DNA from: Gammaproteobacteria bacterium
Lineage (GTDB): Bacteria > Pseudomonadota > Gammaproteobacteria > Acidiferrobacterales > UBA6901
Reading direction: 5' to 3'
Length of the DNA stretch: 25,550 bases
Assembly (NCBI GenBank): GCA_043740595.1
Contig: JAYUBZ010000134.1
Span: 1 to 25,550, forward strand
Below, piece after piece: positions 1-14,328 of the stretch. The position numbers and the translations under genes are program-made. The stretch's first letter is position 1. Every line of letters begins with the position of its first letter. The notes beneath the pieces are model-generated. The model saw only the letters and a list, made by a program, of their open reading frames with translations. It was not told the DNA's origin and ran no database searches.

Positions 1-687
1 CGCGATCTCTACGAAAGCATCCGCCTGGCGCTGCACGACAAGGTGCGCAGCGAAATCCAGAAGAAGGGCCTCGCCCGCAGCCAGATCGTGATCCTGGACG
101 CGCTGCTGAAGCTGCGACAAGTCTGTTGCGATCCGCGCCTGTTGAAACTCGATAGCGCGAAGAAGGTGAAGCGCTCCGCCAAGCTAGAACTACTTATGGA
201 AATGCTGCCGGCACTGCTGGAGGAAGGCCGGCGCGTGCTGTTGTTTTCACAATTCACCAGCATGCTGGCGCTGATCGAGGCGGAACTGAAAGAACGCCAC
301 CTCGACTACGTGCTGCTCACCGGCGACACCCGCGACCGCGCCACCCCCATCGATCGTTTCCAAGCCGGCGAGGTGCCGCTGTTTCTCATCAGCCTCAAGG
401 CCGGCGGCATCGGCTTGAACCTCACGGCCGCCGATACCGTGATCCACTACGACCCGTGGTGGAACCCGGCGGTCGAGCGCCAAGCCACGGACCGCGCGCA
501 CCGCATCGGCCAGGACAAAACGGTGTTCGTGTACAAACTCATCACCGCCGGCAGCGTGGAGGAAAAGATCGGCCAGTTGCAGGCGCGCAAACAGGCGCTG
601 GCGGATGGGGTGTACGGCAAGGCCGGCGCCGAGGGACCGGCGTTTACCGCGGAAGATCTGGAGGCGCTGTTTGCAGCAGCGGAGTGA
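1..687 (+). CDS. SNF2/RAD54-family (DEAD/DEAH-like) helicase, C-terminal part; 5' end lies outside the window
   Basis: Frame is open from base 1 ([20 protein letters not shown]...). SNF2 HelicC motifs: [69 protein letters not shown] at 685-687. Confidence 0.92.
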
Positions 688-696
688 TGGGGCCAC

Positions 697-879
697 TTAT
701 CTGAACCTGATGCCCGATGGTCTACACGCGTATTTTATTGCTGTCGACATACCGTCCCAGGTTCTTCCGGCGAAAATACGCCCATAGTCCCTTTTTGGCT
801 GTCTCTTGTCGTCCGCGCCCCACCTGCTCCATTGCCTGAAGAAGAACGTTACACCGCGTTGCTCGTATTGTGAGATTTT
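697..879 (-). pseudogene. Degraded 3' remnant of a DUF5131 (phage Gp37/Gp68-like, three-Cys radical-SAM-like) gene
   Basis: Start-less minus-strand frame reads KISQYEQRGVTFFFRQWSRWGADDKRQPKRDYGRIFAGRTWDGMS...*. This resembles the DUF5131 C-terminal pattern as I recall it (GVxFFFKQWGGWG...GRxLxGRTWDxMP). The N-terminal Cys motif region is absent. Confidence 0.65.
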
Positions 880-884
880 GTAAC

Positions 885-1487
885 CTATTGGTAGCGGGCC
901 GCTAACTCATCTATGCGCCTGCGCGCGCTGGCCAAACTTGGTGAACGTATTGCGGCTCGTTCAGCACTCCAATCTTCGCGCACAAATTGCCCAAGCATTG
1001 AGTTGTAACCGATTCCTTGGGCGGCTATTGCCCCAGGCGCCTTGATCAACTCCTCGCGAATCGCGCGCGGGGCTTTTTTTGCAAGTTCAAGCAGTGTTTG
1101 CTTGGGATCGCCAAGGGTATCCGGCTCAATAGGAATTTTCTTGGATCTGATTTTTAACAAGTTGGCGAGCGCCTCGGCATCCGCCATCAGCCAGGACTCA
1201 ACCTCTCGCACGGCAACCCGAAATAACATATCTTGTGGAAGCTTGCCACCACCCTTCCATGTCGAAATCAATAGAGGAGCGCAGGCCACACGATCAAGAT
1301 CGGTAATCAGCAGCACAGGCAATGAATAGGCAACCCGCGTGAGTTCCGGTAGCTTCTTTTTCAAATTACCGGCGCCTTTCCCGGGTATTTTTGTATCAAC
1401 ACATAGCACACCCCCGGTTTCGAGAATCAGGCGTTCGGCCACAGCCTCAGTCAGGGCGTCCTCGGTCGCGATAACCATGCTCTTCAT
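885..1487 (-). CDS. DUF4276-type TOPRIM-like protein (putative nuclease effector), 200 aa
   Basis: N-terminal strand with acidic residue (VIATEDALTE), DxD motif (LLITDLDR) and family-type REVESWLMAD motif. Its ATG directly abuts the TGA of the upstream ATPase. Confidence 0.75.
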   Translation of the reverse strand: MKSMVIATEDALTEAVAERLILETGGVLCVDTKIPGKGAGNLKKKLPELTRVAYSLPVLLITDLDRVACAPLLISTWKGGGKLPQDMLFRVAVREVESWLMADAEALANLLKIRSKKIPIEPDTLGDPKQTLLELAKKAPRAIREELIKAPGAIAAQGIGYNSMLGQFVREDWSAERAAIRSPSLASARRRIDELAARYQ

Positions 1488-2642
1488 TCACCACAACCCC
1501 AATTGCTCAACGCCCGCGGGTCGTGTTTTTGGCAGCACCACCTCGGCTACTGACAGTCCGGCCTCCAACGCTTTGGTTTCAGTTTCGCTAATCGGCCGGA
1601 CGCGCGACCCCTCTCGGTCAGCCTCCAGAACCACCACCCCCCGTCCGTCTATGCCTGGATTGCTCAACATTACATCGCTATGAGTACTGATAATGACTTG
1701 GCGGCGATGTTTGGCTTGGCGTAGTGCGCGATCGATCAATAGCGGAATCTGCTCGACCACCGCCTGGTGCAGTGAAAGCTCAGGTTCTTCAAGCAACAGT
1801 AGGGAATCGCCATCCAATAGTGACCACAGCAAACCAATCAAACGCAGCGTTCCATCCGAAAAATGCTCCTCACGCTGCCATGCGCCCTGTGGCCGATGAT
1901 GTTCATACAAGGCCTCCAAATGCGGTCGGCCCGTCGCTTCGTCAGGATGGAAACGCAACTCCTTGAACTGGGGCACGGCTGCGGCAAGCGCCTTGGCGAT
2001 CTTCCGCAACCGTGCTTCGCGCGTATTTTTTGAGCACTTGGCGATTCGCTCCAGAAAACCCTGCCCGAAGGGGTCATCCTCAAGACGCTGGCCCCCGATC
2101 TTGTCTCCGTATTTAAGTAGCTGCGGTACCAGATGCAGGTAGGTTATATTACTGAAAAATTCCGCAATATCTCTAAACTTTACGTTGGTCTGAATCTGCT
2201 CCAGATACGTTTGCGTAAGCAACTGGGTGTCTTTTTTATCTTGGTCGTTCGGACGACTGAACAATCGGCGTCCAGCGTGCCAAACTTCCTCGGTTGAGAC
2301 AAGCAACCGCTGCGCACCTTTGCCCTCCGGTTTAAACCCAAGTATGTACTTCCATGTCGGCTCGACTGGCTCCGCTTTCTCAGCCAAATGAACCTCGATG
2401 CGAACTTCTGTATCCCGCCGCGCATGCAAACAACGCAGTTTGGATATGCCCCCTCGGTCATCCACCGCTTTCTGGAGCCCCCCGCCGTTCGGCTTACTGA
2501 CGTCACGCAGCAAGCGGAACACGTCCAGCAAGTTCGACTTGCCAGATGCATTCGGGCCAATCACATAAGTTCTGGCAGCCAGTGGCACAGCCGCCTCACG
2601 AAAGTTGCGCCAGTTTTTCAGATGCACATGGGTGGCCAGCAT
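1488..2642 (-). CDS. ABC-type ATPase (AAA_21/AAA_15-like, SMC/RecF/OLD-related), 384 aa
   Basis: Walker A GPNASGKSN, signature-like FSDGTLR, Walker B/D-loop LLLLEEPELSLH, H-loop ISTHS. SD GGAG (2651-2654) lies 8 nt upstream of the ATG. Confidence 0.9.
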   Translation of the reverse strand: MLATHVHLKNWRNFREAAVPLAARTYVIGPNASGKSNLLDVFRLLRDVSKPNGGGLQKAVDDRGGISKLRCLHARRDTEVRIEVHLAEKAEPVEPTWKYILGFKPEGKGAQRLLVSTEEVWHAGRRLFSRPNDQDKKDTQLLTQTYLEQIQTNVKFRDIAEFFSNITYLHLVPQLLKYGDKIGGQRLEDDPFGQGFLERIAKCSKNTREARLRKIAKALAAAVPQFKELRFHPDEATGRPHLEALYEHHRPQGAWQREEHFSDGTLRLIGLLWSLLDGDSLLLLEEPELSLHQAVVEQIPLLIDRALRQAKHRRQVIISTHSDVMLSNPGIDGRGVVVLEADREGSRVRPISETETKALEAGLSVAEVVLPKTRPAGVEQLGLW

Positions 2643-2689
2643 TACTCGATCTCCAATATCTTCAGCGACTCAATCCTGTGACCATCCAT
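2642..2689 (-). pseudogene. 15-codon mini-ORF MDGHRIESLKILEIE; probable 3' remnant of a type III-like site-specific DNA methyltransferase (Mod) gene
   Basis: Its TAA overlaps the ATPase ATG (TAATG). The peptide resembles the recalled C-terminus (I)VDDRGIESLK(I/V)xxx of large N6/N4 DNA methylases. It is in frame with, and 9 nt after, the AbrB stop. Confidence 0.55.
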
Positions 2690-2698
2690 AACGCTCGA

Positions 2699-2923
2699 TT
2701 AGCCGCGGGTCAGGACCAAGATCTCGTCAGTGCTCATGGACCGGGTGGCTTTGTCGCGCAGGTGCGCGATCAGGCGTCTGCGGCGTATAGGCGATTTACC
2801 GGTTTTTTGCAGCACCACCACGCCGTGACGCACGGCGAATTCCACCTCAGTGTCTGGAAACAGGCCGGCCTGCTCACAAACTTCCGCTGGAACAGTGATC
2901 CGGCCCTTGCGGGTGATGCGCAT
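2699..2923 (-). CDS. AbrB/MazE/SpoVT-family DNA-binding antitoxin-like protein (VapB-type), 74 aa, with no cognate toxin downstream
   Basis: MRITRKGRITVPAEVCEQAGLFPDTEVEF...STDEILVLTRG matches the AbrB/VapB N-terminal pattern. Start reassigned to the ATG at 2923 because a GAGG SD precedes it; the ORF track start at 2974 is over-extended. Confidence 0.8.
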   Translation of the reverse strand: MRITRKGRITVPAEVCEQAGLFPDTEVEFAVRHGVVVLQKTGKSPIRRRRLIAHLRDKATRSMSTDEILVLTRG

Positions 2924-2947
2924 GGCGTGTCCTCGTGGATTTTTTCG

Positions 2948-2976
2948 ATAGTAAGGCCTGCTCATCCCGGACACAA
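2948..2976 (-). promoter_or_regulatory. Putative sigma70 promoter for the AbrB-ATPase-DUF4276 unit
   Basis: Minus strand TTGTGT (2976-2971), 17 nt spacer, TACTAT (2953-2948), 25 nt upstream of the AbrB ATG. Confidence 0.55.
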
Positions 2977-3009
2977 GCGACGACCAATATCAAACCTTAT
3001 GCACGCCGG

Positions 3010-4596
3010 CTAAGCCTGCTCGCGCGTCGCGTTAAAGGTGATCTCCGGCCAGCGCTCCATGGTCAGCTGCAGGTTCACCCGTGACGGCGCGAGATAGGCC
3101 AGCTCACCGGCACCGTCCCGCGCGAGGTTGTCGCGCAGTTTTTTCTCGAAATCGGCCAGCATTTTCTCGTCGTGACACACGATCCAGCGTGCCGTTTTCA
3201 CCTGCACCGGTTCGAAGACCGCGTCCACGCCGTATTCGTTCTGCAGACGGCTCGTCACCACGTCGAACTGCAGGGTACCCACCGCACCGAGTATCAGTTC
3301 GTTGGAATTGAGCGGGCGGAACAATTGGGTCGCGCCTTCTTCCGTCAATTGCTCCAGGCCTTTTTGCAGCGCCTTCATCTTCATCGGGTTCTTGATCTGG
3401 GTGCGGCGGAAGATTTCCGGGGCAAAATTGGGAATGCCGCTGAACTTGAGTGCTTCCTTTTGAGTAAAGGTATCACCGATGCGCATAGTGCCGTGGTTGT
3501 GCAGGCCCAGGATATCGCCGGCGTAGGCCTCTTCCACAGCGACACGTTCCTGTGCCATGAAGGTAATGGCGTTGGCAACGGTGACCTCGCGGCCGAGGCG
3601 CACGTGGTAGAGCTTCATGCCCGGCGTGTATTTACCCGAGCAAAGTCGTATGAAGGCAATGCGGTCACGGTGATTGGGGTCCATGTTTGCCTGGATCTTA
3701 AAGACGAAGCCGCTGAGGGCCTCTTCCTCCGCCCGCACCAGGCGCCCCCCACCGTCCCGAGGTTGCGGTCCCGGGGCAACCTCCACAAAGCTGTCGAGTA
3801 ACTCCTGCACACCGAAATTATTCACGGCGGAGCCAAAAAACACGGGCGTCTGTTTACCGGCGAGATAGGCCGCCAGGTCGAAGGCATGGCTGGCGCCACG
3901 CACTAACTCCACTTCCCCGCGGAACTCCTGGGCCTGATCCCCCAGCACCTCGTCCAGGCGCGGGTTGTCGAGGCCTACGATCACTTCGCCCACATTGATC
4001 TTGCCACCGTGGGTCGGCGAGTACAGATGTACGGACTCGGTGTGCAGGTGATAGATGCCCTTGAAGCGCTTGCCCATGCCGATGGGCCAGGTCACCGGCG
4101 CGCATTGGATGTTCAACACCTTTTCCACTTCGTCCAACACCTCCATGGGATCGCGCCCCTCGCGGTCCATCTTGTTGATGAAGGTGGTGATGGGGGTGGT
4201 GCGCAGCCGGCAGACTTCCATGAGCTTGATGGTACGGTCCTCTACACCCTTGGCGATATCGATCACCATGAGGGCCGAGTCCACGGCGGTGAGGGTACGA
4301 TAGGTGTCTTCGGAAAAATCTTCGTGACCCGGGGTGTCGAGCAGGTTGACGATGCGGTCTTTGTAAGGAAACTGCATGACCGATGAGGTGACAGAAATGC
4401 CGCGCTGCTTTTCCATTTCCATCCAGTCGGACGTGGCATGGCGTGCCGCCTTACGTCCTTTGACGCTGCCGGCGAGCTGAATCGCGCCGCCAAACAGCAG
4501 GAGCTTTTCGGTTAACGTGGTTTTCCCTGCATCCGGGTGGGAAATGATCGCAAAGGTCCGGCGACGGGCAACCTCACGCGTGATCTCAACTGACAT
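3010..4596 (-). CDS. prfC: Peptide chain release factor 3
   Basis: [56 protein letters not shown]; 528 aa, typical RF3 length. Confidence 0.98.
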
Positions 4597-5711: not shown

Positions 5712-6668
5712 ATGCTCAAACTCTATCCTGAAATCAAAACGAATCGCGTCGACACCCTTTCCGTCGGTAACGGACACCAGCTTTATGTCGAGGAATCCGG
5801 AAACCCCCGGGGAGTCCCTGTGCTGTTCGTACACGGCGGTCCCGGGGCGGGCTGTGACGAAAAACACCGGCGCTTTTTTGACCCGACACACTATCGCATA
5901 ATCCTATTCGATCAGCGTGGCGCGGGGCGTTCGCGACCCCATGCCTCCCTGGACCACAACACCACCCAGGATCTGGTGGCAGACATGGAAGCCCTACGTC
6001 AGTTTTTCGACATCGATCGTTGGGTGCTTTTCGGCGGCTCCTGGGGATCGACCCTGAGCCTGGTCTACGCCGAGACCTATCCGGAGCGCGTGCTTGGATT
6101 GATCGTGCGCGGTATTTTTCTCATGCGGCCTCAGGAGGTCCGCTGGTTCTATCAGGAGGGTGCGAACTATGTGTATCCGGATTATTGGCAGGACTTTGTC
6201 ACCCCCATCCCGGAAAACGAACGCGACGACCTGGTGCATGCCCACTACCGCCACCTCACGGGCGATGACGAAATTGCGCGCATGGCATCCGCCAAGGCCT
6301 GGTCCGTATGGGAGGGGCGCACCGCTACCCTGACACCGAATCACGCGGTCATCGATTTTTTCAGTAACCCGCACCTGGCCATGAGCCTGGCGCGCATCGA
6401 GGCGCATTACTGCGTCAACCAGGCCTTTCTCGCGGAAAACCAACTGCTGCGTGATGCATACCGCCTCGCCACCCTACCCGGCTATATTATCCAGGGGCGT
6501 TACGATATGTGTTGCCCCATGGCAAGTGCCTGGGATCTGCATCTTGCCTGGCCGCAGGCACAACTGGAGATCATCCCGGACGCCGGACACTCGGTGAGTG
6601 AACCTGGCATTACCGATGCGCTGGTGCGCGCCACGATCAGTCTGCACAAACAGCTAGCGCTGGGTTGA
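5712..6668 (+). CDS. pip: Proline iminopeptidase (alpha/beta hydrolase)
   Basis: HGGPG oxyanion motif, FDQRGAGRS, nucleophile GGSWG, IQGRYD, DAGHS; 318 aa. Confidence 0.95.
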   Translation: MLKLYPEIKTNRVDTLSVGNGHQLYVEESGNPRGVPVLFVHGGPGAGCDEKHRRFFDPTHYRIILFDQRGAGRSRPHASLDHNTTQDLVADMEALRQFFDIDRWVLFGGSWGSTLSLVYAETYPERVLGLIVRGIFLMRPQEVRWFYQEGANYVYPDYWQDFVTPIPENERDDLVHAHYRHLTGDDEIARMASAKAWSVWEGRTATLTPNHAVIDFFSNPHLAMSLARIEAHYCVNQAFLAENQLLRDAYRLATLPGYIIQGRYDMCCPMASAWDLHLAWPQAQLEIIPDAGHSVSEPGITDALVRATISLHKQLALG

Positions 6669-6671
6669 GGC

Positions 6672-7508
6672 ATGGCGGTCTATGCCATTGGCGATGTACA
6701 GGGCTGCTATTCGGCGTTGCAACAGCTCCTCGATACGCTGCGTTTTGATCCCTCACAGGACCGGTTGTGGCTGGTCGGTGACTTGGTAAACCGCGGCCCG
6801 CAGTCCGCCGAGGTATTGCGTTTTGTCATGTCGCTGCCGGAAACGATCGTCGTGCTCGGCAACCACGATCTCCATTTGCTGGCGGTGGCCGCCGGCAAGG
6901 CCAAAATGCGGTCCGGCGACACCCTGGAGGGAATTCTATCCGCACCGGACCGCGAGTCTATGCTGGCCTGGTTACGCCAGCGCCCTCTTTTGCATCACGA
7001 TGCCGGTCTCGGATATACCTTGGTGCATGCCGGGCTCGTACCCCAGTGGAGTTTGGACCAAGCCATGGTCTACGCGCGGGAGGCGGAGGCGGCCATAGGT
7101 GCATCGGCGTCCAATGATTTATTCGACACACTGTACGGCGATCAGCCCGATCGCTGGGACGATACCCTGACCGGCCATGACCGTTTGCGGGTGATTGTTA
7201 ATGTCTTCACGCGTCTGCGCTACTGTGATCCCGCAGGGCGCATGTTGTTACGCGCCAGTGGGGCGCCGGGCACCCAGCCCGCGCCATTTTTACCTTGGTT
7301 TCAGATTCCGGAGCGACGCTCCCGGCATGCACGCATCGTATTTGGGCATTGGTCCACTCTCGGGTTATGGCAGGACGATGGTGTTATCGCCCTGGATAGC
7401 GGCTGTCTATGGGGCAGGCAACTGACAGCGGTGCGACTGGACACCCGCGGAGCCGACTTTATCAGCATCCCTTGCGGGCAATCGTTGTTACCCGGCACAT
7501 TGTGCTGA
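6672..7508 (+). CDS. apaH: Symmetrical bis(5'-nucleosyl)-tetraphosphatase (Ap4A hydrolase)
   Basis: [47 protein letters not shown] motifs. Confidence 0.95.
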
Positions 7509-10539: not shown

Positions 10540-11619
10540 TCAGGTTGCTTCTTCGATACCACCTCGTTCCACGTGAAACACTTTGTGCGATAACCAGCCC
10601 TGGGTGTCCACCAAACCTGCCTCGGTGGCGGTAATAAATACCTGTAGAGACATGCTGGAGAGGGTGTGCATGAGCTGTTGTCGGTGTCGTGGATCCAGTT
10701 CAGCCGCAAGGTCGTCAATCAATACTACGCAGTGACGACGGGTTTTTTGAGTAAAGATTTCCATTTGAGCCAGGCGTAACGCGATCACCAATAATTTCTG
10801 CTGGCCATGGGAGGCACTGATACGGGCAGGTTGGCCGGAAAAAGAGAGGCCTATGTCGGCACGGTGCGGCCCGGAGTGGGTGCTGCCGGTTTGTAAATCC
10901 CGCCCACGCTCTTTGTGTAGTGTTTGATCCAAACCGATGTCGGACTCCCAGCCCTGCTTAAGTTCAATTTCTGCTTCAGAAACGCCCAGGAGATGAAAAC
11001 AATAGTGTTGAAAACGACTATTCCATTCTTCAAGAAACTGACGGCGGTAGGCCTGTAGGCGTTCGCCGGATTCCACCAGTTCCGGATCCCAAGCAAAACA
11101 CGCCTTAGGGAGTTGGCGGGCCTTCAGGGCCGCATTGCGTTGGTTGAGCGTCCGCTGATAGCGCATCCAGTGGCCATAAAAATCTGGTTCCACGTGAAAC
11201 ACCCCCCAATCCAATATCCCCCGGCGGTGTCGTGTATTAGTAAAAAATTGGAAATGACTATCAGGAGAAATAATTTGCAAGGGCAGGGTGCGTGCCAACA
11301 AAGAGGCGCTTGGTTGGGGGCTGCCCCCCAGGCTGAAACGCGAGTGTTGGGTATCACGTTGTAGCGCTAAGCGGGTTGCGGGAACGCCATCGTCATAAAA
11401 CTGCCCACTTACTAGAAAAGCAGGCGAGCTGTGTCGAATGAGTTGATTTAGGAGGGTTGTGCGAAAGCTGCGGCCTGTTCCTAGAAGATGTATAGCTTCG
11501 AGTAGGCTGGTTTTCCCACTGGCGTTATGACCAACAATCAGGTTAAGGCGGAGAGCGGGCGCAAGTCGGATTTTCTCGAAAAGGCGAAAGTGCTCCACTT
11601 CAAGCAAAGTTAGAGGCAT
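10540..11619 (-). CDS. recF: DNA replication/repair protein RecF
   Basis: GHNASGKTSLLEAI (Walker A), LDWGVFH, GPHRAD, SHGQQK, LIDDLAAELD; sits between dnaN and gyrB. Confidence 0.97.
   Translation of the reverse strand: MPLTLLEVEHFRLFEKIRLAPALRLNLIVGHNASGKTSLLEAIHLLGTGRSFRTTLLNQLIRHSSPAFLVSGQFYDDGVPATRLALQRDTQHSRFSLGGSPQPSASLLARTLPLQIISPDSHFQFFTNTRHRRGILDWGVFHVEPDFYGHWMRYQRTLNQRNAALKARQLPKACFAWDPELVESGERLQAYRRQFLEEWNSRFQHYCFHLLGVSEAEIELKQGWESDIGLDQTLHKERGRDLQTGSTHSGPHRADIGLSFSGQPARISASHGQQKLLVIALRLAQMEIFTQKTRRHCVVLIDDLAAELDPRHRQQLMHTLSSMSLQVFITATEAGLVDTQGWLSHKVFHVERGGIEEAT
10565..10580. other. parS centromere site 1, inside recF
   Basis: CGTTCCACGTGAAACA versus consensus TGTTTCACGTGAAACA; encodes VFHVER on the minus strand. 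Confidence 0.85.
11186..11201. other. parS centromere site 2, inside recF
   Basis: GGTTCCACGTGAAACA; encodes VFHVEP on the minus strand; 621 bp from site 1. Confidence 0.85.
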
Positions 11620-11658
11620 TGATGAATCGTGTAAAAGGCTGCTGGTTTCCCTGGAACC

Positions 11659-12759
11659 TCATAAACGCATGGGCATAACCACATATTGATAGCGATGCTC
11701 TGAGGGGCTACGCAGTGTGCAACTGCTGTTTGGGTCCGATAACCCAAATTCGACCACTGATGAGTCGAGGGCGCTGATTGCATCGATGATGTAGGTTACG
11801 TTAAAACCAATATCCAATTCGTTCCCCTGATAATCGATGGCTAACTCTTCTTGTGCCTCCTCTTGTTCTGGATTGTGTGCGGTGACCCGAAGGATGCCTG
11901 GGCTAATACTGAAGCGCACACCGCGATACTTTTCGTTCGACAGAATGGCGGCTCGATTGAGTGTTTCTTTAAACAAATCCCGATCCAGCTTTAGAAGTAT
12001 TGTCTGTTTTTGCGGTACAACCTTATTGTAATCCGGGAAGCGACCGTCGATAAGTTTGGAGGTAAACACCAAGTCAGTAAATACCACGCGTATGTGATTG
12101 TTGCCCAACAGAACATCGACGGTCTCATCGCTGCTTTCTAAAAACCGCGTCAGCTCCTGGACACCTTTACGCGGCACAATCACCTGCTTGTCACTGTCAC
12201 TTTGCGTTGTGATGCTGGACTCACTCATAGCCATGCGGTGGCCATCGGTGGCCACCGCGCGTAGTTTGTCAGCGCCGACTTCCAGCAAGAGACCGTTCAA
12301 GTAATAACGAACATCCTGTTGCGCCATGCAAAACTGGGTTTTTTCCAGCAATTCTTTCAGCGCTTTTTGCGGAAGCGTGATGCTGCGCTCCCACTGTGAG
12401 ACCTCGATGCTTGGGAAATCCGAGGCAGGCAATACCATCAGGGTGAAACGGCTGCGGCCGGATTTAATCACGACCTTTTCCTTTTCCAACTTGATTTCAA
12501 TTTTGGCCTGAGACGGAAGCGCGCGACAAATATCCAACAGCTTGCGTGCGGGCACCGTGAGTTCGCCATTAACCCCTTGCGCGGATCGTGTCTTCACGAT
12601 GACCTCTACCTCAAGGTCGGTGCCCACCAAAGAAAGTTCGCCCTCGTGCAAACGAACTAACACATTCGACAAAATAGGTAAGGTCTGGCGCCGTTCGACC
12701 ACGCCCGCTACAAACGAGAGGGGTTTGAGAAGGTCTTCGCGCAGGATACTAAGTTGCAT
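11659..12759 (-). CDS. dnaN: DNA polymerase III beta sliding clamp, 366 aa
   Basis: VVERRQTLPILSNVL, TDLEVE, QQDVRYYLNG, ATDGHRM, SKLIDGRFPDY, YVVMPMRL. ATG 12759 is preferred (GGA upstream, canonical length); ATG 12771 is an alternative. Confidence 0.98.
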   Translation of the reverse strand: MQLSILREDLLKPLSFVAGVVERRQTLPILSNVLVRLHEGELSLVGTDLEVEVIVKTRSAQGVNGELTVPARKLLDICRALPSQAKIEIKLEKEKVVIKSGRSRFTLMVLPASDFPSIEVSQWERSITLPQKALKELLEKTQFCMAQQDVRYYLNGLLLEVGADKLRAVATDGHRMAMSESSITTQSDSDKQVIVPRKGVQELTRFLESSDETVDVLLGNNHIRVVFTDLVFTSKLIDGRFPDYNKVVPQKQTILLKLDRDLFKETLNRAAILSNEKYRGVRFSISPGILRVTAHNPEQEEAQEELAIDYQGNELDIGFNVTYIIDAISALDSSVVEFGLSDPNSSCTLRSPSEHRYQYVVMPMRL

Positions 12760-12771
12760 AGTCTGTTCCAT

Positions 12772-12996
12772 TATTGGTTTATAGGTTTTATTTAAAAACT
12801 TATAGTAATAACTATTATGTCGGTCTTGGCATGTGGGTAAGGCAATATTTCTTTACTAAAACAAAGAGTTAAAAGTTTCAAACCCTGTTGATAACCCCTT
12901 ATGAGCACTGTGTACATGGCCGGGATAAACATGAGCAACTCTGAGTGAGCCGGTATTATAGTGAGTTATCCACATTCCAGCGCACACATTTCCACA
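12772..12996. other. Probable chromosomal replication origin (oriC) in the dnaN-dnaA intergenic region
   Basis: Perfect TTATCCACA at 12966-12974. One-mismatch boxes TGTGGGTAA (12832-12840), TGTTGATAA (12886-12894) and ATTTCCACA (12988-12996). Very AT-rich 12772-12820 with TAG-TAA-TAA trio-like repeats (12803-12811). Confidence 0.75.
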
Positions 12997-14328
12997 TCAA
13001 GTTGTGAGTATCCTGAGTAAGTTGGAATAGTCCTCTCGGATGCGCATATTGGACTCATTAAGCTCAACCACTTTACGGCAGGCATGCAGTACTGTCGTGT
13101 GATCACGGCCTCCAAAGGCGTCACCAATTTCCGGAAGACTGTGGCTGGTGAGTTCTTTGGATAAAGCCATGGCAAGCTGCCGTGGTCGCACCACCTGGCG
13201 CGCACGGTTTTTAGAGTGCAGGTCAGAAACACGGATCTTAAAATACTCTGCCACCGTCTTTTGAATATTGTTGATGGTAACCAAGCGCTCTTGAAACGCC
13301 AAAAGATCTTTCAAGCCTTCGCTGGCAAGGTTCATATCAATGGGTCGCCCGGTAAAAGCAGCACTGGCCACCACCCGGCGAAATGCACCTTCCAGCTCGC
13401 GCACATTGGAGCGCACACGCTTGGCAATAAAAAATGCAACCTCCTCTGGCAGTTTCAAACCCTCATGCTGAGCCTTCTTCATCAGGATCGCTACGCGTGT
13501 TTCCAATTCCGGTGGGTCAATAGAAACCGTCAAGCCACAGCCAAAGCGTGATATCAGACGTTCTTCAACACCCACCAACTCTTTCGGAAAACGGTCTGCA
13601 GTAATGATGACCTGCCGTTGGCCTTCGAGTAAATTGTTGAAGGTGTGAAAGAACTCCTCTTGCGAGCGTTCCTTACCGACAAAAAATTGAATGTCATCGA
13701 TAAGCAGAGCATCGAGCGTGCGGTAGTGTTTTTTGAAATCGTTAATCGCATTGTGCTGCAGGGCCTTCACCATATCGGCGACAAAACGTTCAGAATGAAC
13801 ATAAGCGACCCGTGCCTGAGGTTGCCGCTCCATCATCATTTGGCCCGCCGCATGCATCAGATGGGTTTTACCCAAACCCACACCGCCATAGATGAACAGG
13901 GGATTGTAGGCACCCCCTGGGTTTTCACCAACCTGACGCGCTGCCGCACGGGCCAGCTGATTGGATTTTCCCTCAATATGGGTATCAAAAGTGAAATCCG
14001 GGTTGAGTCGACCTGCCTGTTGCAAAGGCCGCTTGGCGGGACGCAACGGCGCTGATGTAGCGGTGACAGCGGGAACAGGTACATGCTCCGAAGACCGGCT
14101 GCCTATTTCGATAGCGACAGGCACATCCCGGTCCAGGTATTGCGCGGCAATTTCGGCGATGCGAGCCAGAAAGCGCTCTCGCACCCAGTCCATCACAAAG
14201 CGATTCGGGGCAAGCAGGCGCAGGCCGTCGCCTTCCGCCACAGCATGTAGAGGGCGAATCCAGGTATTAAACTGTTGTGCTGACAGCTCTTCTTCCAACC
14301 GTTCCAGGCACTTAGTCCAAAGTATCAT
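12997..14328 (-). CDS. dnaA: Chromosomal replication initiator DnaA
   Basis: [64 protein letters not shown]; 443 aa. Confidence 0.99.

What the first reader, a model, noticed from the sequence alone, without database searches (positions are those of the whole stretch)
688..3009. Decayed defence island in which only the ATPase-TOPRIM core stayed intact
Seen: in transcription order the island reads AbrB, Mod-like scar, ATPase, DUF4276, DUF5131-like scar. Both scars abut intact genes. Spot GC counts inside are 29/60 (1081-1140), 30/60 (1801-1860) and 26/60 (2161-2220), versus 41/60 in the helicase (301-360); these are hand-picked lines. No integrase or att repeat is visible. Inference: the ancestral island combined TA, RM-like methylase, ATPase/TOPRIM and DUF5131 modules. 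Deletion of everything around the pair suggests it is selected for or addictive by itself, and hints at an undescribed composite system linking DNA modification to an ATPase-TOPRIM effector.
Basis: inference. Interest (0 to 1): 0.7.

Follow-up and report, generated by a model that had tools for sequence, protein, structure and literature searches.

The report
Orphan HEC-01 defence pair between gene scars
An intact, already catalogued candidate anti-phage gene pair (an ABC ATPase plus a small Toprim-like nuclease, "HEC-01") sits between two real gene stumps in a variable spot downstream of prfC. It is a well-documented case of defence-cassette turnover, not a new kind of system.

Summary
Window 736-870 (minus strand) is the last 45 codons of a DUF5131 gene. 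Window 2642-2692 (minus strand) is the last 16 codons of a type III-like DNA methylase (Mod).

The intact pair between them matches PADLOC HEC-01A and HEC-01B strongly. All ATPase and Toprim catalytic motifs are present, the two proteins are predicted to bind, and both genes are under purifying selection.

Relatives explain the scars. One genome of the same family carries an intact Mod-TcmP-DUF5131-Res system directly after prfC. Two same-genus genomes carry decayed versions of it. Another contig has helicase and prfC adjacent with nothing between.

HEC-01 was not found in the 18 other family genomes searched. Its Mod tail resembles that of its closest foreign relatives. It therefore most likely arrived by horizontal transfer and replaced TcmP and most of DUF5131.

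The "undescribed composite system" is not supported. ATPase-Toprim pairs set inside methylase-based systems are already described (HEC-01 in Hma, MAD3-MAD4 in MADS). AbrB is not associated with the pair elsewhere. TcmP-DUF5131 is an alternative cassette for the same Mod-Res slot, not a partner of HEC-01.

This scan has already reported orphan HEC-01 pairs beside methylase stubs in other genomes. Verdict: new member of a known kind.

The parts
1..687 (+). 3' end of an SNF2/SWIM-type helicase gene; left flank of the variable interval
   Evidence: Pfam Helicase_C, E 1.7e-22. It is adjacent to prfC across an empty 317-bp spacer in G016:C222.
719..871 (-). DUF5131 3' relic. Codons 205-249 map to 736-870. 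The original stop is mutated, and about 17 nt of the old 3' flank follow.
   Evidence: tblastn 64% identity, E 2e-17; Pfam DUF5131 positions 202-242; 76% DNA identity to G003. It carries a frameshift in the related contig L135.
872..884 (-). 13-nt junction spacer between the HEC-01B stop and the DUF5131 relic (right breakpoint)
   Evidence: Homology to G003 ends at 871. Homology to the closest cassettes, L016 and L017, ends at the HEC-01B stop.
885..1487 (-). HEC-01B: 200-aa Toprim-like nuclease subunit (DUF4276-like), intact
   Evidence: PADLOC HEC-01B E 7e-56. E9/D10 and D63-x-D65 are invariant and present. AF2 model pLDDT 94.8. Best fold matches: OLD C-terminal Toprim region Z 9.4, AriB Z 7.9.
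1488..2642 (-). HEC-01A: 384-aa ABC-type ATPase (AAA_21), intact
   Evidence: PADLOC HEC-01A E 5e-153; Pfam AAA_21 E 7.5e-35. Walker A, signature, Walker B and H-loop residues are invariant and present.
2642..2698 (-). Type III-like Mod methylase 3' relic: 16 homologous codons (2645-2692) plus a stop that overlaps the ATPase ATG. The left breakpoint lies 2 nt after the AbrB stop.
   Evidence: Alignment to Mod tails in L019, L020, L023, L027, L055 and L070. Score 40 against a shuffle maximum of 35. Homology to G003 ends at 2697.
2699..2923 (-). AbrB/MazE-fold 74-aa gene with no toxin partner; resident of this genus next to prfC
   Evidence: Pfam MazE_antitoxin 26.7 bits; NCBIfam AbrB domain. 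Present in G003, G004 and metagenomic relatives. Absent from G016 and from 80 HEC-01 loci.
3010..4596 (-). prfC (release factor 3); right flank and anchor of the hot spot
   Evidence: Pfam GTP_EFTU and RF3_C. In G016:C86, Mod-TcmP-DUF5131-Res begins 245 bp after prfC.

Best explanation
The interval between prfC and the helicase is a variable defence locus. Its older occupant in this family was a type III-like restriction-modification system: a Mod methylase of about 1000 aa and a Res enzyme of the BPTD_3080 family. A two-gene cassette, TcmP-DUF5131 (PADLOC candidate PDC-M30), was embedded between Mod and Res.

In the window's lineage that system has decayed. A different embedded-type cassette, HEC-01, now occupies the place of TcmP and the first three quarters of DUF5131. 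HEC-01 came from outside the family and brought the last 16 codons of its own donor's Mod gene. Only the last 45 codons of DUF5131 remain on the other side.

Function is inferred, not shown. HEC-01A and HEC-01B probably assemble into an ATPase-nuclease complex like MAD3-MAD4 (a 2:2 heterotetramer with ATPase and DNA-cleaving activity) or PARIS. That complex would act as a stand-alone anti-phage effector, probably transcribed with AbrB or by read-through from prfC.
For: Identity of the parts:
- PADLOC, Pfam and NCBIfam hits.
- Catalytic motifs present in both proteins.
- Toprim/OLD/AriB fold for HEC-01B.
- Predicted A-B binding: ipSAE 0.62 against a best control of 0.02. That mark was reached by 58 of 80 solved complexes and 2 of 110 mismatched pairs. 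The three runs agree in at least 95% of contacts and the partner's pLDDT is at least 90. My own alignments were used, so the counts hold only roughly, and likeness to solved ATPase-Toprim complexes may contribute.

History of the locus:
- Empty site in G016:C222.
- Intact Mod-TcmP-DUF5131-orf78-Res after prfC in G016:C86.
- G003 has AbrB, then a Mod with an internal deletion (the start fused to the last about 75 codons, with a frameshift), then TcmP and DUF5131.
- G002 has 32 codons of TcmP fused to DUF5131.

Foreign origin of the pair:
- Not found in 18 other genomes of the family. Found in 2 of 102 others in the order, at 57-59% identity.
- Closest relatives (89%, 84% and 81% aa) are in unrelated MAGs.
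- GC3 is 0.55-0.60, against 0.76-0.82 in the flanking genes.
- The relic's ending (LEIE*, with stop-start overlap) matches L016 and L017 (LEIK*), not the resident tails (IALD*, IPLS*). DNA homology to L016 and L017 runs 23 nt upstream of the ATG.

Selection on the pair:
- Codon-position identity to L016 is 0.91/0.95/0.63 for A and 0.83/0.92/0.60 for B.

The Mod-Res slot is variable in other genomes:
- HEC-01 in 6 or more loci.
- Empty in L121.
- Two toxin-antitoxin-like pairs, named by eye, in L122.
- Another ATPase pair in L124.

Mod-tail relics also recur upstream of orphan HEC-01 in L021, L022, L030 and L039.
Against: - HEC-01 gave no protection against any phage in the only published test, in E. 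coli (10.1101/2024.01.29.577857). A defence role is therefore still guilt by association.
- The order of events is inferred from a few fragmented MAGs, and the G003 interval is broken by contig ends.
- The 16-codon tail is too short to prove it came with the cassette rather than from a resident Mod.
- L030 shows DUF5131, a Res fragment, a Mod fragment and HEC-01 in tandem. An ancestral tandem array pruned by deletions is therefore possible.
- No consensus promoter was found.
- G000 is 76% complete, so a Mod or Res elsewhere in the genome is not excluded.
Confidence: 0.62

Rival explanations
1. In situ decay of one larger ancestral array. The ancestor at this site carried both Mod-HEC-01-Res and Mod-TcmP-DUF5131-Res, in tandem or as one composite. 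Several deletions then left AbrB, a Mod tail, HEC-01 and a DUF5131 tail.
For: Both scars abut the intact pair. L030 shows such a tandem junction in another lineage: a DUF5131 pseudogene, a Res N-terminal fragment, a Mod C-terminal fragment, HEC-01A, HEC-01B and Res. G003 and the window share the AbrB end of the island.
Against: HEC-01A was not found in 18 other family genomes, including those with the intact or decayed TcmP-DUF5131 system. The window's Mod tail resembles that of the foreign cassettes L016 and L017. This history needs at least three independent deletions with precise ends. The cassette's GC3 is foreign-like.
Confidence: 0.2
2. The pair is kept because it is addictive or selfish, like a toxin-antitoxin pair with the nuclease as toxin and the ATPase as restraint, and not because it defends against phage.
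For: It persists as an orphan in many unrelated housekeeping contexts: about 60 of 80 loci have no R-M neighbour. HEC-01 showed no defence in E. coli. Between related lineages the cassette is less diverged at third codon positions than the flanking core genes (28/586 against 81/529, p 2e-9). That fits later spread by recombination.
Against: There is no direct evidence of toxicity. Related ATPase-Toprim modules (PARIS, Gabija, OLD, MADS) are shown defence effectors. Embedding in R-M systems points to defence. No plasmid or mobile-element hallmarks are present.
Confidence: 0.1
3. AbrB has been recruited as the regulator of the orphan pair, giving a new three-gene unit AbrB-HEC-01A-HEC-01B.
For: The same AbrB, 56-nt gap and ATPase arrangement is conserved in at least three further lineages. 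The genes are co-oriented, and no terminator-like site was found on their strand.
Against: AbrB precedes a different cargo (the Mod start) in G003. It is absent from 80 other HEC-01 loci. It evolves with weak constraint: 8 nonsynonymous against 5 synonymous codon changes versus L137, and a flat codon-position profile versus G003.
Confidence: 0.08

Closest known systems
HEC-01 (Hma-embedded candidate 01; PADLOC-DB v2; Payne et al., bioRxiv 10.1101/2024.01.29.577857)
   Same: A two-gene ABC ATPase plus small Toprim-like protein. Both PADLOC models match strongly (E 5e-153 and 7e-56). The gene order is the same and the genes abut. There is a historical association with a methylase gene directly upstream.
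   Different: Here the pair is orphaned; only 16 codons of the methylase remain. In related loci the scaffold is a type III-like Mod plus a BPTD_3080-family Res, not Hma. The published test found no defence activity for HEC-01.
MAD3-MAD4 module of the methylation-associated defence system MADS (PMC13662399)
   Same: A split ABC-type ATPase plus a DUF4276/Toprim-like nuclease, linked to a DNA methylase-based system. In MAD3-MAD4 the Toprim active site lies at the ATPase interface. The predicted interface here includes residues 10-11, next to the Toprim Glu.
   Different: It is only a distant relative: the NCBIfam MAD3 equivalog model scores 65 bits against a cut-off of 420, and no solved MAD4-like chain was matched by sequence. 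No other mad genes are adjacent.
PARIS (AriA-AriB) and OLD-family nucleases (P2 Old, Gabija GajA)
   Same: The logic of an ABC ATPase with a Toprim nuclease. Fold of HEC-01B: OLD C-terminal region Z 9.4, AriB Z 7.9.
   Different: There is no match to DUF4435/AriB models. The ATPase and nuclease are separate, unlike OLD. The trigger and the substrate are unknown.
TcmP-DUF5131 pair (PADLOC candidate PDC-M30; NCBIfam TIGR04474 with Pfam PF07505)
   Same: The scar at 736-870 is the 3' end of such a DUF5131 gene. Relatives keep the full pair at this locus, between Mod and Res.
   Different: In the window it is a dead 45-codon remnant and TcmP is gone. Its function is uncharacterised.

Membership tests
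HEC-01 (PADLOC) | ABC ATPase matching a HEC-01A model | tested here: met
   PDLC04180, E 5.4e-153, covering residues 1-382. Walker A, signature, Walker B and H-loop residues are present.
HEC-01 (PADLOC) | Adjacent small Toprim-like protein matching a HEC-01B model | tested here: met
   PDLC04194, E 7.1e-56. E9/D10 and DxD are present. The partner is adjacent in 75 of 80 related loci.
HEC-01 (PADLOC) | Embedded within an Hma or other methylase-based system | tested here: not met
   Only a 16-codon Mod relic remains. No Mod homologue was found in the 76%-complete genome. Most relatives are also stand-alone.
HEC-01 (PADLOC) | Anti-phage activity | not testable with these tools
   The published assay found none for HEC-01 in E. 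coli.
MADS MAD3-MAD4 | MAD3 equivalog score and the mad1-mad8 operon context | tested here: not met
   NF047739 scores 65.2 bits against a cut-off of 420. PADLOC mad3 gives only E 2.4e-20. No other mad-like genes are adjacent.
Pfam DUF4276 (PF14103) | Score at or above the gathering threshold | tested here: not met
   20.8 bits against 30.2, E 4.9e-4, a partial match. It is best called DUF4276-like.
Toprim / OLD-type nuclease fold | Toprim fold with a conserved Glu and a DxD motif | tested here: met
   AF2 model pLDDT 94.8. Fold matches: 6nk8_B Z 9.4, rmsd 3.6, 162 residues aligned; 8ux9_A Z 7.9. E9 and D63/D65 are invariant in 47 homologues.
PARIS (AriA/AriB) | AriB (DUF4435) partner | tested here: not met
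   No AriB or DUF4435 hit for the 200-aa protein. The AriA hit is at the level of the generic AAA_21 domain.
DUF5131 (PF07505), for the scar | Match to the family model | tested here: met
   Only model positions 202-242 of 243 match, at 28.4 bits (29.2 with neighbours, against a cut-off of 28.9). tblastn E 2e-17. It is a fragment, not a gene.
Type III-like Mod (N6_N4_Mtase), for the scar | Homology to the methylase | tested here: inconclusive
   The relic is too short for the Pfam domain. It matches only the conserved C-terminal tail of Mods upstream of HEC-01A, with a score above all 1540 shuffles.
VapBC/MazEF-type toxin-antitoxin | Antitoxin with an adjacent toxin gene | tested here: not met
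   The MazE/AbrB fold is present. No toxin ORF follows it in the window, G003 or the related contigs.

The most novel reading that the evidence does not exclude
Type III-like Mod plus BPTD_3080-family Res systems may act as exchange platforms. Under this reading the conserved Mod tail and Res head flank a slot in which unrelated cassettes are swapped by recombination. The states seen are HEC-01, TcmP-DUF5131, toxin-antitoxin pairs, other ATPase pairs, and empty. Cassettes would leave carrying a Mod tail and then spread as autonomous units; here the orphan form is shared by several already diverged lineages. Payne et al. analysed Hma, BREX, DISARM and type I R-M, not this scaffold.
Probability: 0.35. 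Interest if true: 0.5.

Novelty: new member of a known kind. Interest (0 to 1): 0.3.

Why it matters
The case gives a base-level record of how embedded defence cassettes turn over. All the stages are seen at one chromosomal site in one bacterial family: an empty site, an intact Mod-cassette-Res system, two partly decayed versions, and a replaced version with both junction scars. It shows that HEC-01 persists, and seems to spread, without its methylase-based host system. That argues the pair works on its own and is worth retesting for function outside E. coli. It adds no new kind of system.

Tried and rejected
- Mobile-element hallmarks: no flanking direct or inverted repeats at the junctions, no tRNA, no Rfam family and no integrase.
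- Sigma-70 consensus scan: no promoter-like site in 600-3100. The two terminator-like sites are on the opposite strand and no more than chance gives.
- Sequence search of solved structures: nothing for HEC-01B, and only a marginal AriA hit for HEC-01A.
- Foldseek alone gave no match at E <= 0.001. The OLD C-terminal regions ranked first at E about 4e-3.
- Enrichment of DUF5131/TcmP or AbrB/VapBC next to HEC-01 homologues: 1 of 80 loci and 0 of 80. Immediate neighbours are mostly housekeeping genes.
- Res remnant downstream of the DUF5131 scar in the window or in G003: none found.
- Mod homologue elsewhere in G000: none found, but the genome is 76% complete.
- Whole-segment GC as evidence of foreign origin: weak (20th percentile). 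GC3 is clearer.
- One locus from an unpublished genome (G141, L106) was left out.
Full report
**Anatomy.** All genes of the finding lie on the minus strand.
- prfC: 3010-4596.
- A 74-aa AbrB/MazE-fold gene: 2699-2923.
- A 56-nt gap.
- A 384-aa ABC-type ATPase: 1488-2642.
- A 200-aa protein whose ATG directly follows the ATPase stop: 885-1487.
- A 197-nt gap.
- The stop of a plus-strand SNF2-type helicase gene: 685-687.

Pfam gives AAA_21 for the ATPase (E 7.5e-35). It gives only a sub-threshold DUF4276 match for the small protein (20.8 bits against a cut-off of 30.2). PADLOC identifies the two as HEC-01A (E 5e-153) and HEC-01B (E 7e-56).

**The DUF5131 scar is real.** The DUF5131 protein of a same-genus genome (G003) aligns by tblastn, over its residues 205-249, to window 870-736. 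Identity is 64% and E is 2e-17. The Pfam DUF5131 model finds positions 202-242 at 748-870. DNA homology to G003 covers 719-871 at 76%. The ancestral stop codon is mutated. In a related contig the relic carries a frameshift. First and second codon positions are more diverged than between intact copies. It is a dead remnant.

**The Mod scar is real.** The gap between AbrB and the ATPase reads ...VMDGHRIESLKILEIE*, and its TAA overlaps the ATPase ATG. In L019, L020, L023, L027, L055 and L070 the gene directly upstream of HEC-01A is a methylase of about 1000 aa. It matches N6_N4_Mtase and the PADLOC type III MTase model (E 7e-181). These methylases end ...AVKIVDDRGIESLKVIxL[DE]*. Against that tail consensus the window scores 40. 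The maximum in 1540 shuffles of upstream regions was 35.

**What relatives hold at this site.**
- G016:C222 has helicase and prfC adjacent, with an empty 317-bp spacer.
- G016:C86 has an intact system starting 245 bp after prfC:
  - Mod (1015 aa).
  - TcmP (TIGR04474).
  - DUF5131.
  - A 78-aa ORF.
  - Res (NCBIfam BPTD_3080 restriction endonuclease, 1168 bits).
  - TcmP-DUF5131 corresponds to the PADLOC candidate PDC-M30.
- G003 (same genus) has prfC, AbrB and a 72-nt spacer. A Mod with an internal deletion follows: its first 14 codons are fused to its last 75 or so, with a frameshift. Intact TcmP and DUF5131 come next.
- G002 has the first 32 codons of TcmP fused to DUF5131.

So the DUF5131 scar is what remains of a resident Mod-TcmP-DUF5131-Res system.

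**Origin of the HEC-01 pair.**
- HEC-01A was not found in the 18 other genomes of the family. It was found in only 2 of 102 other genomes of the order, at 57-59% identity. Several of these genomes are incomplete.
- The closest relatives (89%, 84% and 81% aa identity) are in unrelated MAGs, L016-L018.
- GC3 is 0.60 and 0.55 for the pair. It is 0.82 in the helicase, 0.76 in prfC and 0.65 in AbrB.
- The relic's last codons and its stop-start overlap resemble L016 and L017 (...SLKFLEIK*). They do not resemble the resident tails (...IIALD*...IIPLS*). DNA homology to L016 and L017 continues 23 nt upstream of the ATG.

I therefore read the Mod tail as having travelled with the cassette. Window 872-2696 (1825 bp) replaces G003's 2106 bp, which hold the spacer, the deleted Mod, TcmP and three quarters of DUF5131. 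No repeats or microhomology of note mark the junctions. With 16 codons the origin of the tail is not proven. A tandem array pruned by deletions remains possible. L030 shows such a junction: a DUF5131 pseudogene, a Res N-terminal fragment, a Mod C-terminal fragment, HEC-01A, HEC-01B and Res.

- HEC-01B is adjacent in 75 of 80.
- The immediate upstream gene is an N6_N4 methylase in 9 of 71 loci and a type I S subunit in 4 of 71.
- The immediate downstream gene has a ResIII domain in 7 of 73.
- The remaining neighbours are diverse housekeeping genes.
- DUF5131 appears once (L030) and AbrB never.
- Mod-tail relics recur upstream of orphan pairs in L021, L022, L030 and L039.
- Close Mod-Res scaffolds carry different slot contents:
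  - None in L121.
  - A distant HEC-01 in L128.
  - Four small ORFs in L122 that I read by eye as two toxin-antitoxin pairs.
  - Another ATPase with a 181-aa partner in L124.

So HEC-01 is usually autonomous. TcmP-DUF5131 is an alternative cassette, not a partner of HEC-01.

**The configuration is stable.** Metagenomic contigs L135/L136 and L137/L138, plus two places listed without DNA, carry the same order with the same gaps: prfC, AbrB, ATPase, 200-aa gene, helicase. Against these contigs:
- The cassette and the Mod scar are 97-100% identical.
- prfC is 89-94.5% identical and the helicase 93%.
- The DUF5131 scar is 90-92% identical.
- Third-position differences are 28/586 in the pair against 81/529 in prfC (p 2e-9).

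This suggests the orphan cassette spread among already diverged lineages by recombination. Different mutation or selection regimes are not excluded.

**The pair is constrained.** Codon-position identity to L016 is 0.91/0.95/0.63 for A and 0.83/0.92/0.60 for B.

**Likely mechanism (inferred).**
- HEC-01A keeps its Walker A, signature, Walker B and H-loop residues.
- HEC-01B keeps the Toprim Glu (E9) and the DxD motif (D63, D65).
- The HEC-01B model (pLDDT 94.8) best matches OLD C-terminal Toprim regions (Z 9.4, rmsd 3.6, 162 residues aligned) and AriB (Z 7.9).
- The complex prediction supports binding but does not show it. The score is 0.62 against a best control of 0.02. That mark was reached by 58 of 80 solved complexes and 2 of 110 mismatched pairs. 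The three runs agree in at least 95% of contacts, and the partner's pLDDT is at least 90. My own alignments were used, so the counts hold only roughly, and likeness to solved complexes may help.
- The predicted interface includes HEC-01B residues 10-11 and 152-163 and HEC-01A residues 327-334. These stretches contain invariant residues.

The nearest characterised analogue is MAD3-MAD4. It is an ABC ATPase plus a DUF4276-type Toprim protein that forms a 2:2 heterotetramer with ATPase and DNA-cleaving activity, with the Toprim site at the subunit interface (PMC13662399). The window's ATPase is not a MAD3 equivalog: it scores 65 bits against a cut-off of 420.

In the only published test HEC-01 protected E. 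coli against none of the phages tried (10.1101/2024.01.29.577857). A defence role therefore remains an inference from family relations and from embedding.

**AbrB.** It has a MazE/AbrB fold. No toxin gene follows it in any relative. It precedes different cargo in G003. It evolves with weak constraint. It is best seen as a resident small gene of the genus that now sits upstream of the pair. A regulatory role is possible but untested.

**Verdict.** The locus is a decayed defence site with one intact, constrained ATPase-Toprim pair. The claimed undescribed composite system, however, is the already described embedding of HEC-01/MAD3-MAD4-type pairs in methylase-based systems, and the DUF5131 relic belongs to a rival cassette.

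Earlier notes of this scan report orphan HEC-01 pairs beside methylase stubs in other genomes. I did not check those here.

Noticed in passing
window 2699-2923: AbrB evolves with little constraint. Against L137 and L138 there are 8 nonsynonymous and 5 synonymous codon changes. Codon-position identity to G003 is flat (0.84/0.87/0.81), against 0.95/0.99/0.74 for prfC. The frame stays open in all copies.
   Followed up: partly
window 885-2698 versus L135, L137 and L138: The cassette and the Mod scar are 97-100% identical between lineages whose prfC and helicase are 89-94% identical. The third-position difference is significant (p 2e-9). The neutral DUF5131 scar is 90-92% identical. This suggests the orphan cassette spread later by recombination.
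   Followed up: partly
L013 (G003:C663) 3300-3550: Mod carries an internal deletion. Its first 14 codons are fused to its last 75 or so, with a frameshift. TcmP and DUF5131 downstream stay intact.
   Followed up: yes
L013 (G003:C663) 1281-1400: A weak second Mod-tail-like stretch lies just downstream of DUF5131 (tblastn E 0.004-0.01, 35-37% identity over 40 aa). It may be another relic or chance.
   Followed up: no
L013 (G003:C663) 3941-4191: About 250 bp lie between AbrB and prfC that are absent from the window. Their content was not examined.
   Followed up: no
L102 (G002:C53) 6117-7028: The first 32 codons of TcmP are fused in frame to a full-length DUF5131. Here it lies next to flagellar export genes, not the helicase.
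   Followed up: partly
L030 1-470: A DUF5131 with an internal stop, a fragment of about 50 aa from the Res N-terminus and a frameshifted Mod C-terminal fragment precede HEC-01A, HEC-01B and an intact Res. This is a footprint of recombination between two Mod-cassette-Res systems.
   Followed up: partly
L122 2915-4205 and L124 1-1394: Other contents of the Mod-Res slot. L122 has four small ORFs that I read by eye as a BrnT/BrnA-like pair plus an antitoxin and a PIN-like protein; no domain search was run. L124 has a different ABC-type ATPase with a 181-aa partner.
   Followed up: no
L101 (G016:C86) 6241-6477: A 78-aa ORF with no family match sits between DUF5131 and Res in the intact system.
   Followed up: no
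G016 contigs C222 and C86: This one MAG (6% contamination) carries two prfC copies, one at an empty site and one followed by the intact system. It is probably a mixture of two strains.
   Followed up: no
window about 11500-13300: This is the lowest-GC stretch of the window (0.485 over 1825 bp), lower than the HEC-01 cassette. It was not examined.
   Followed up: no
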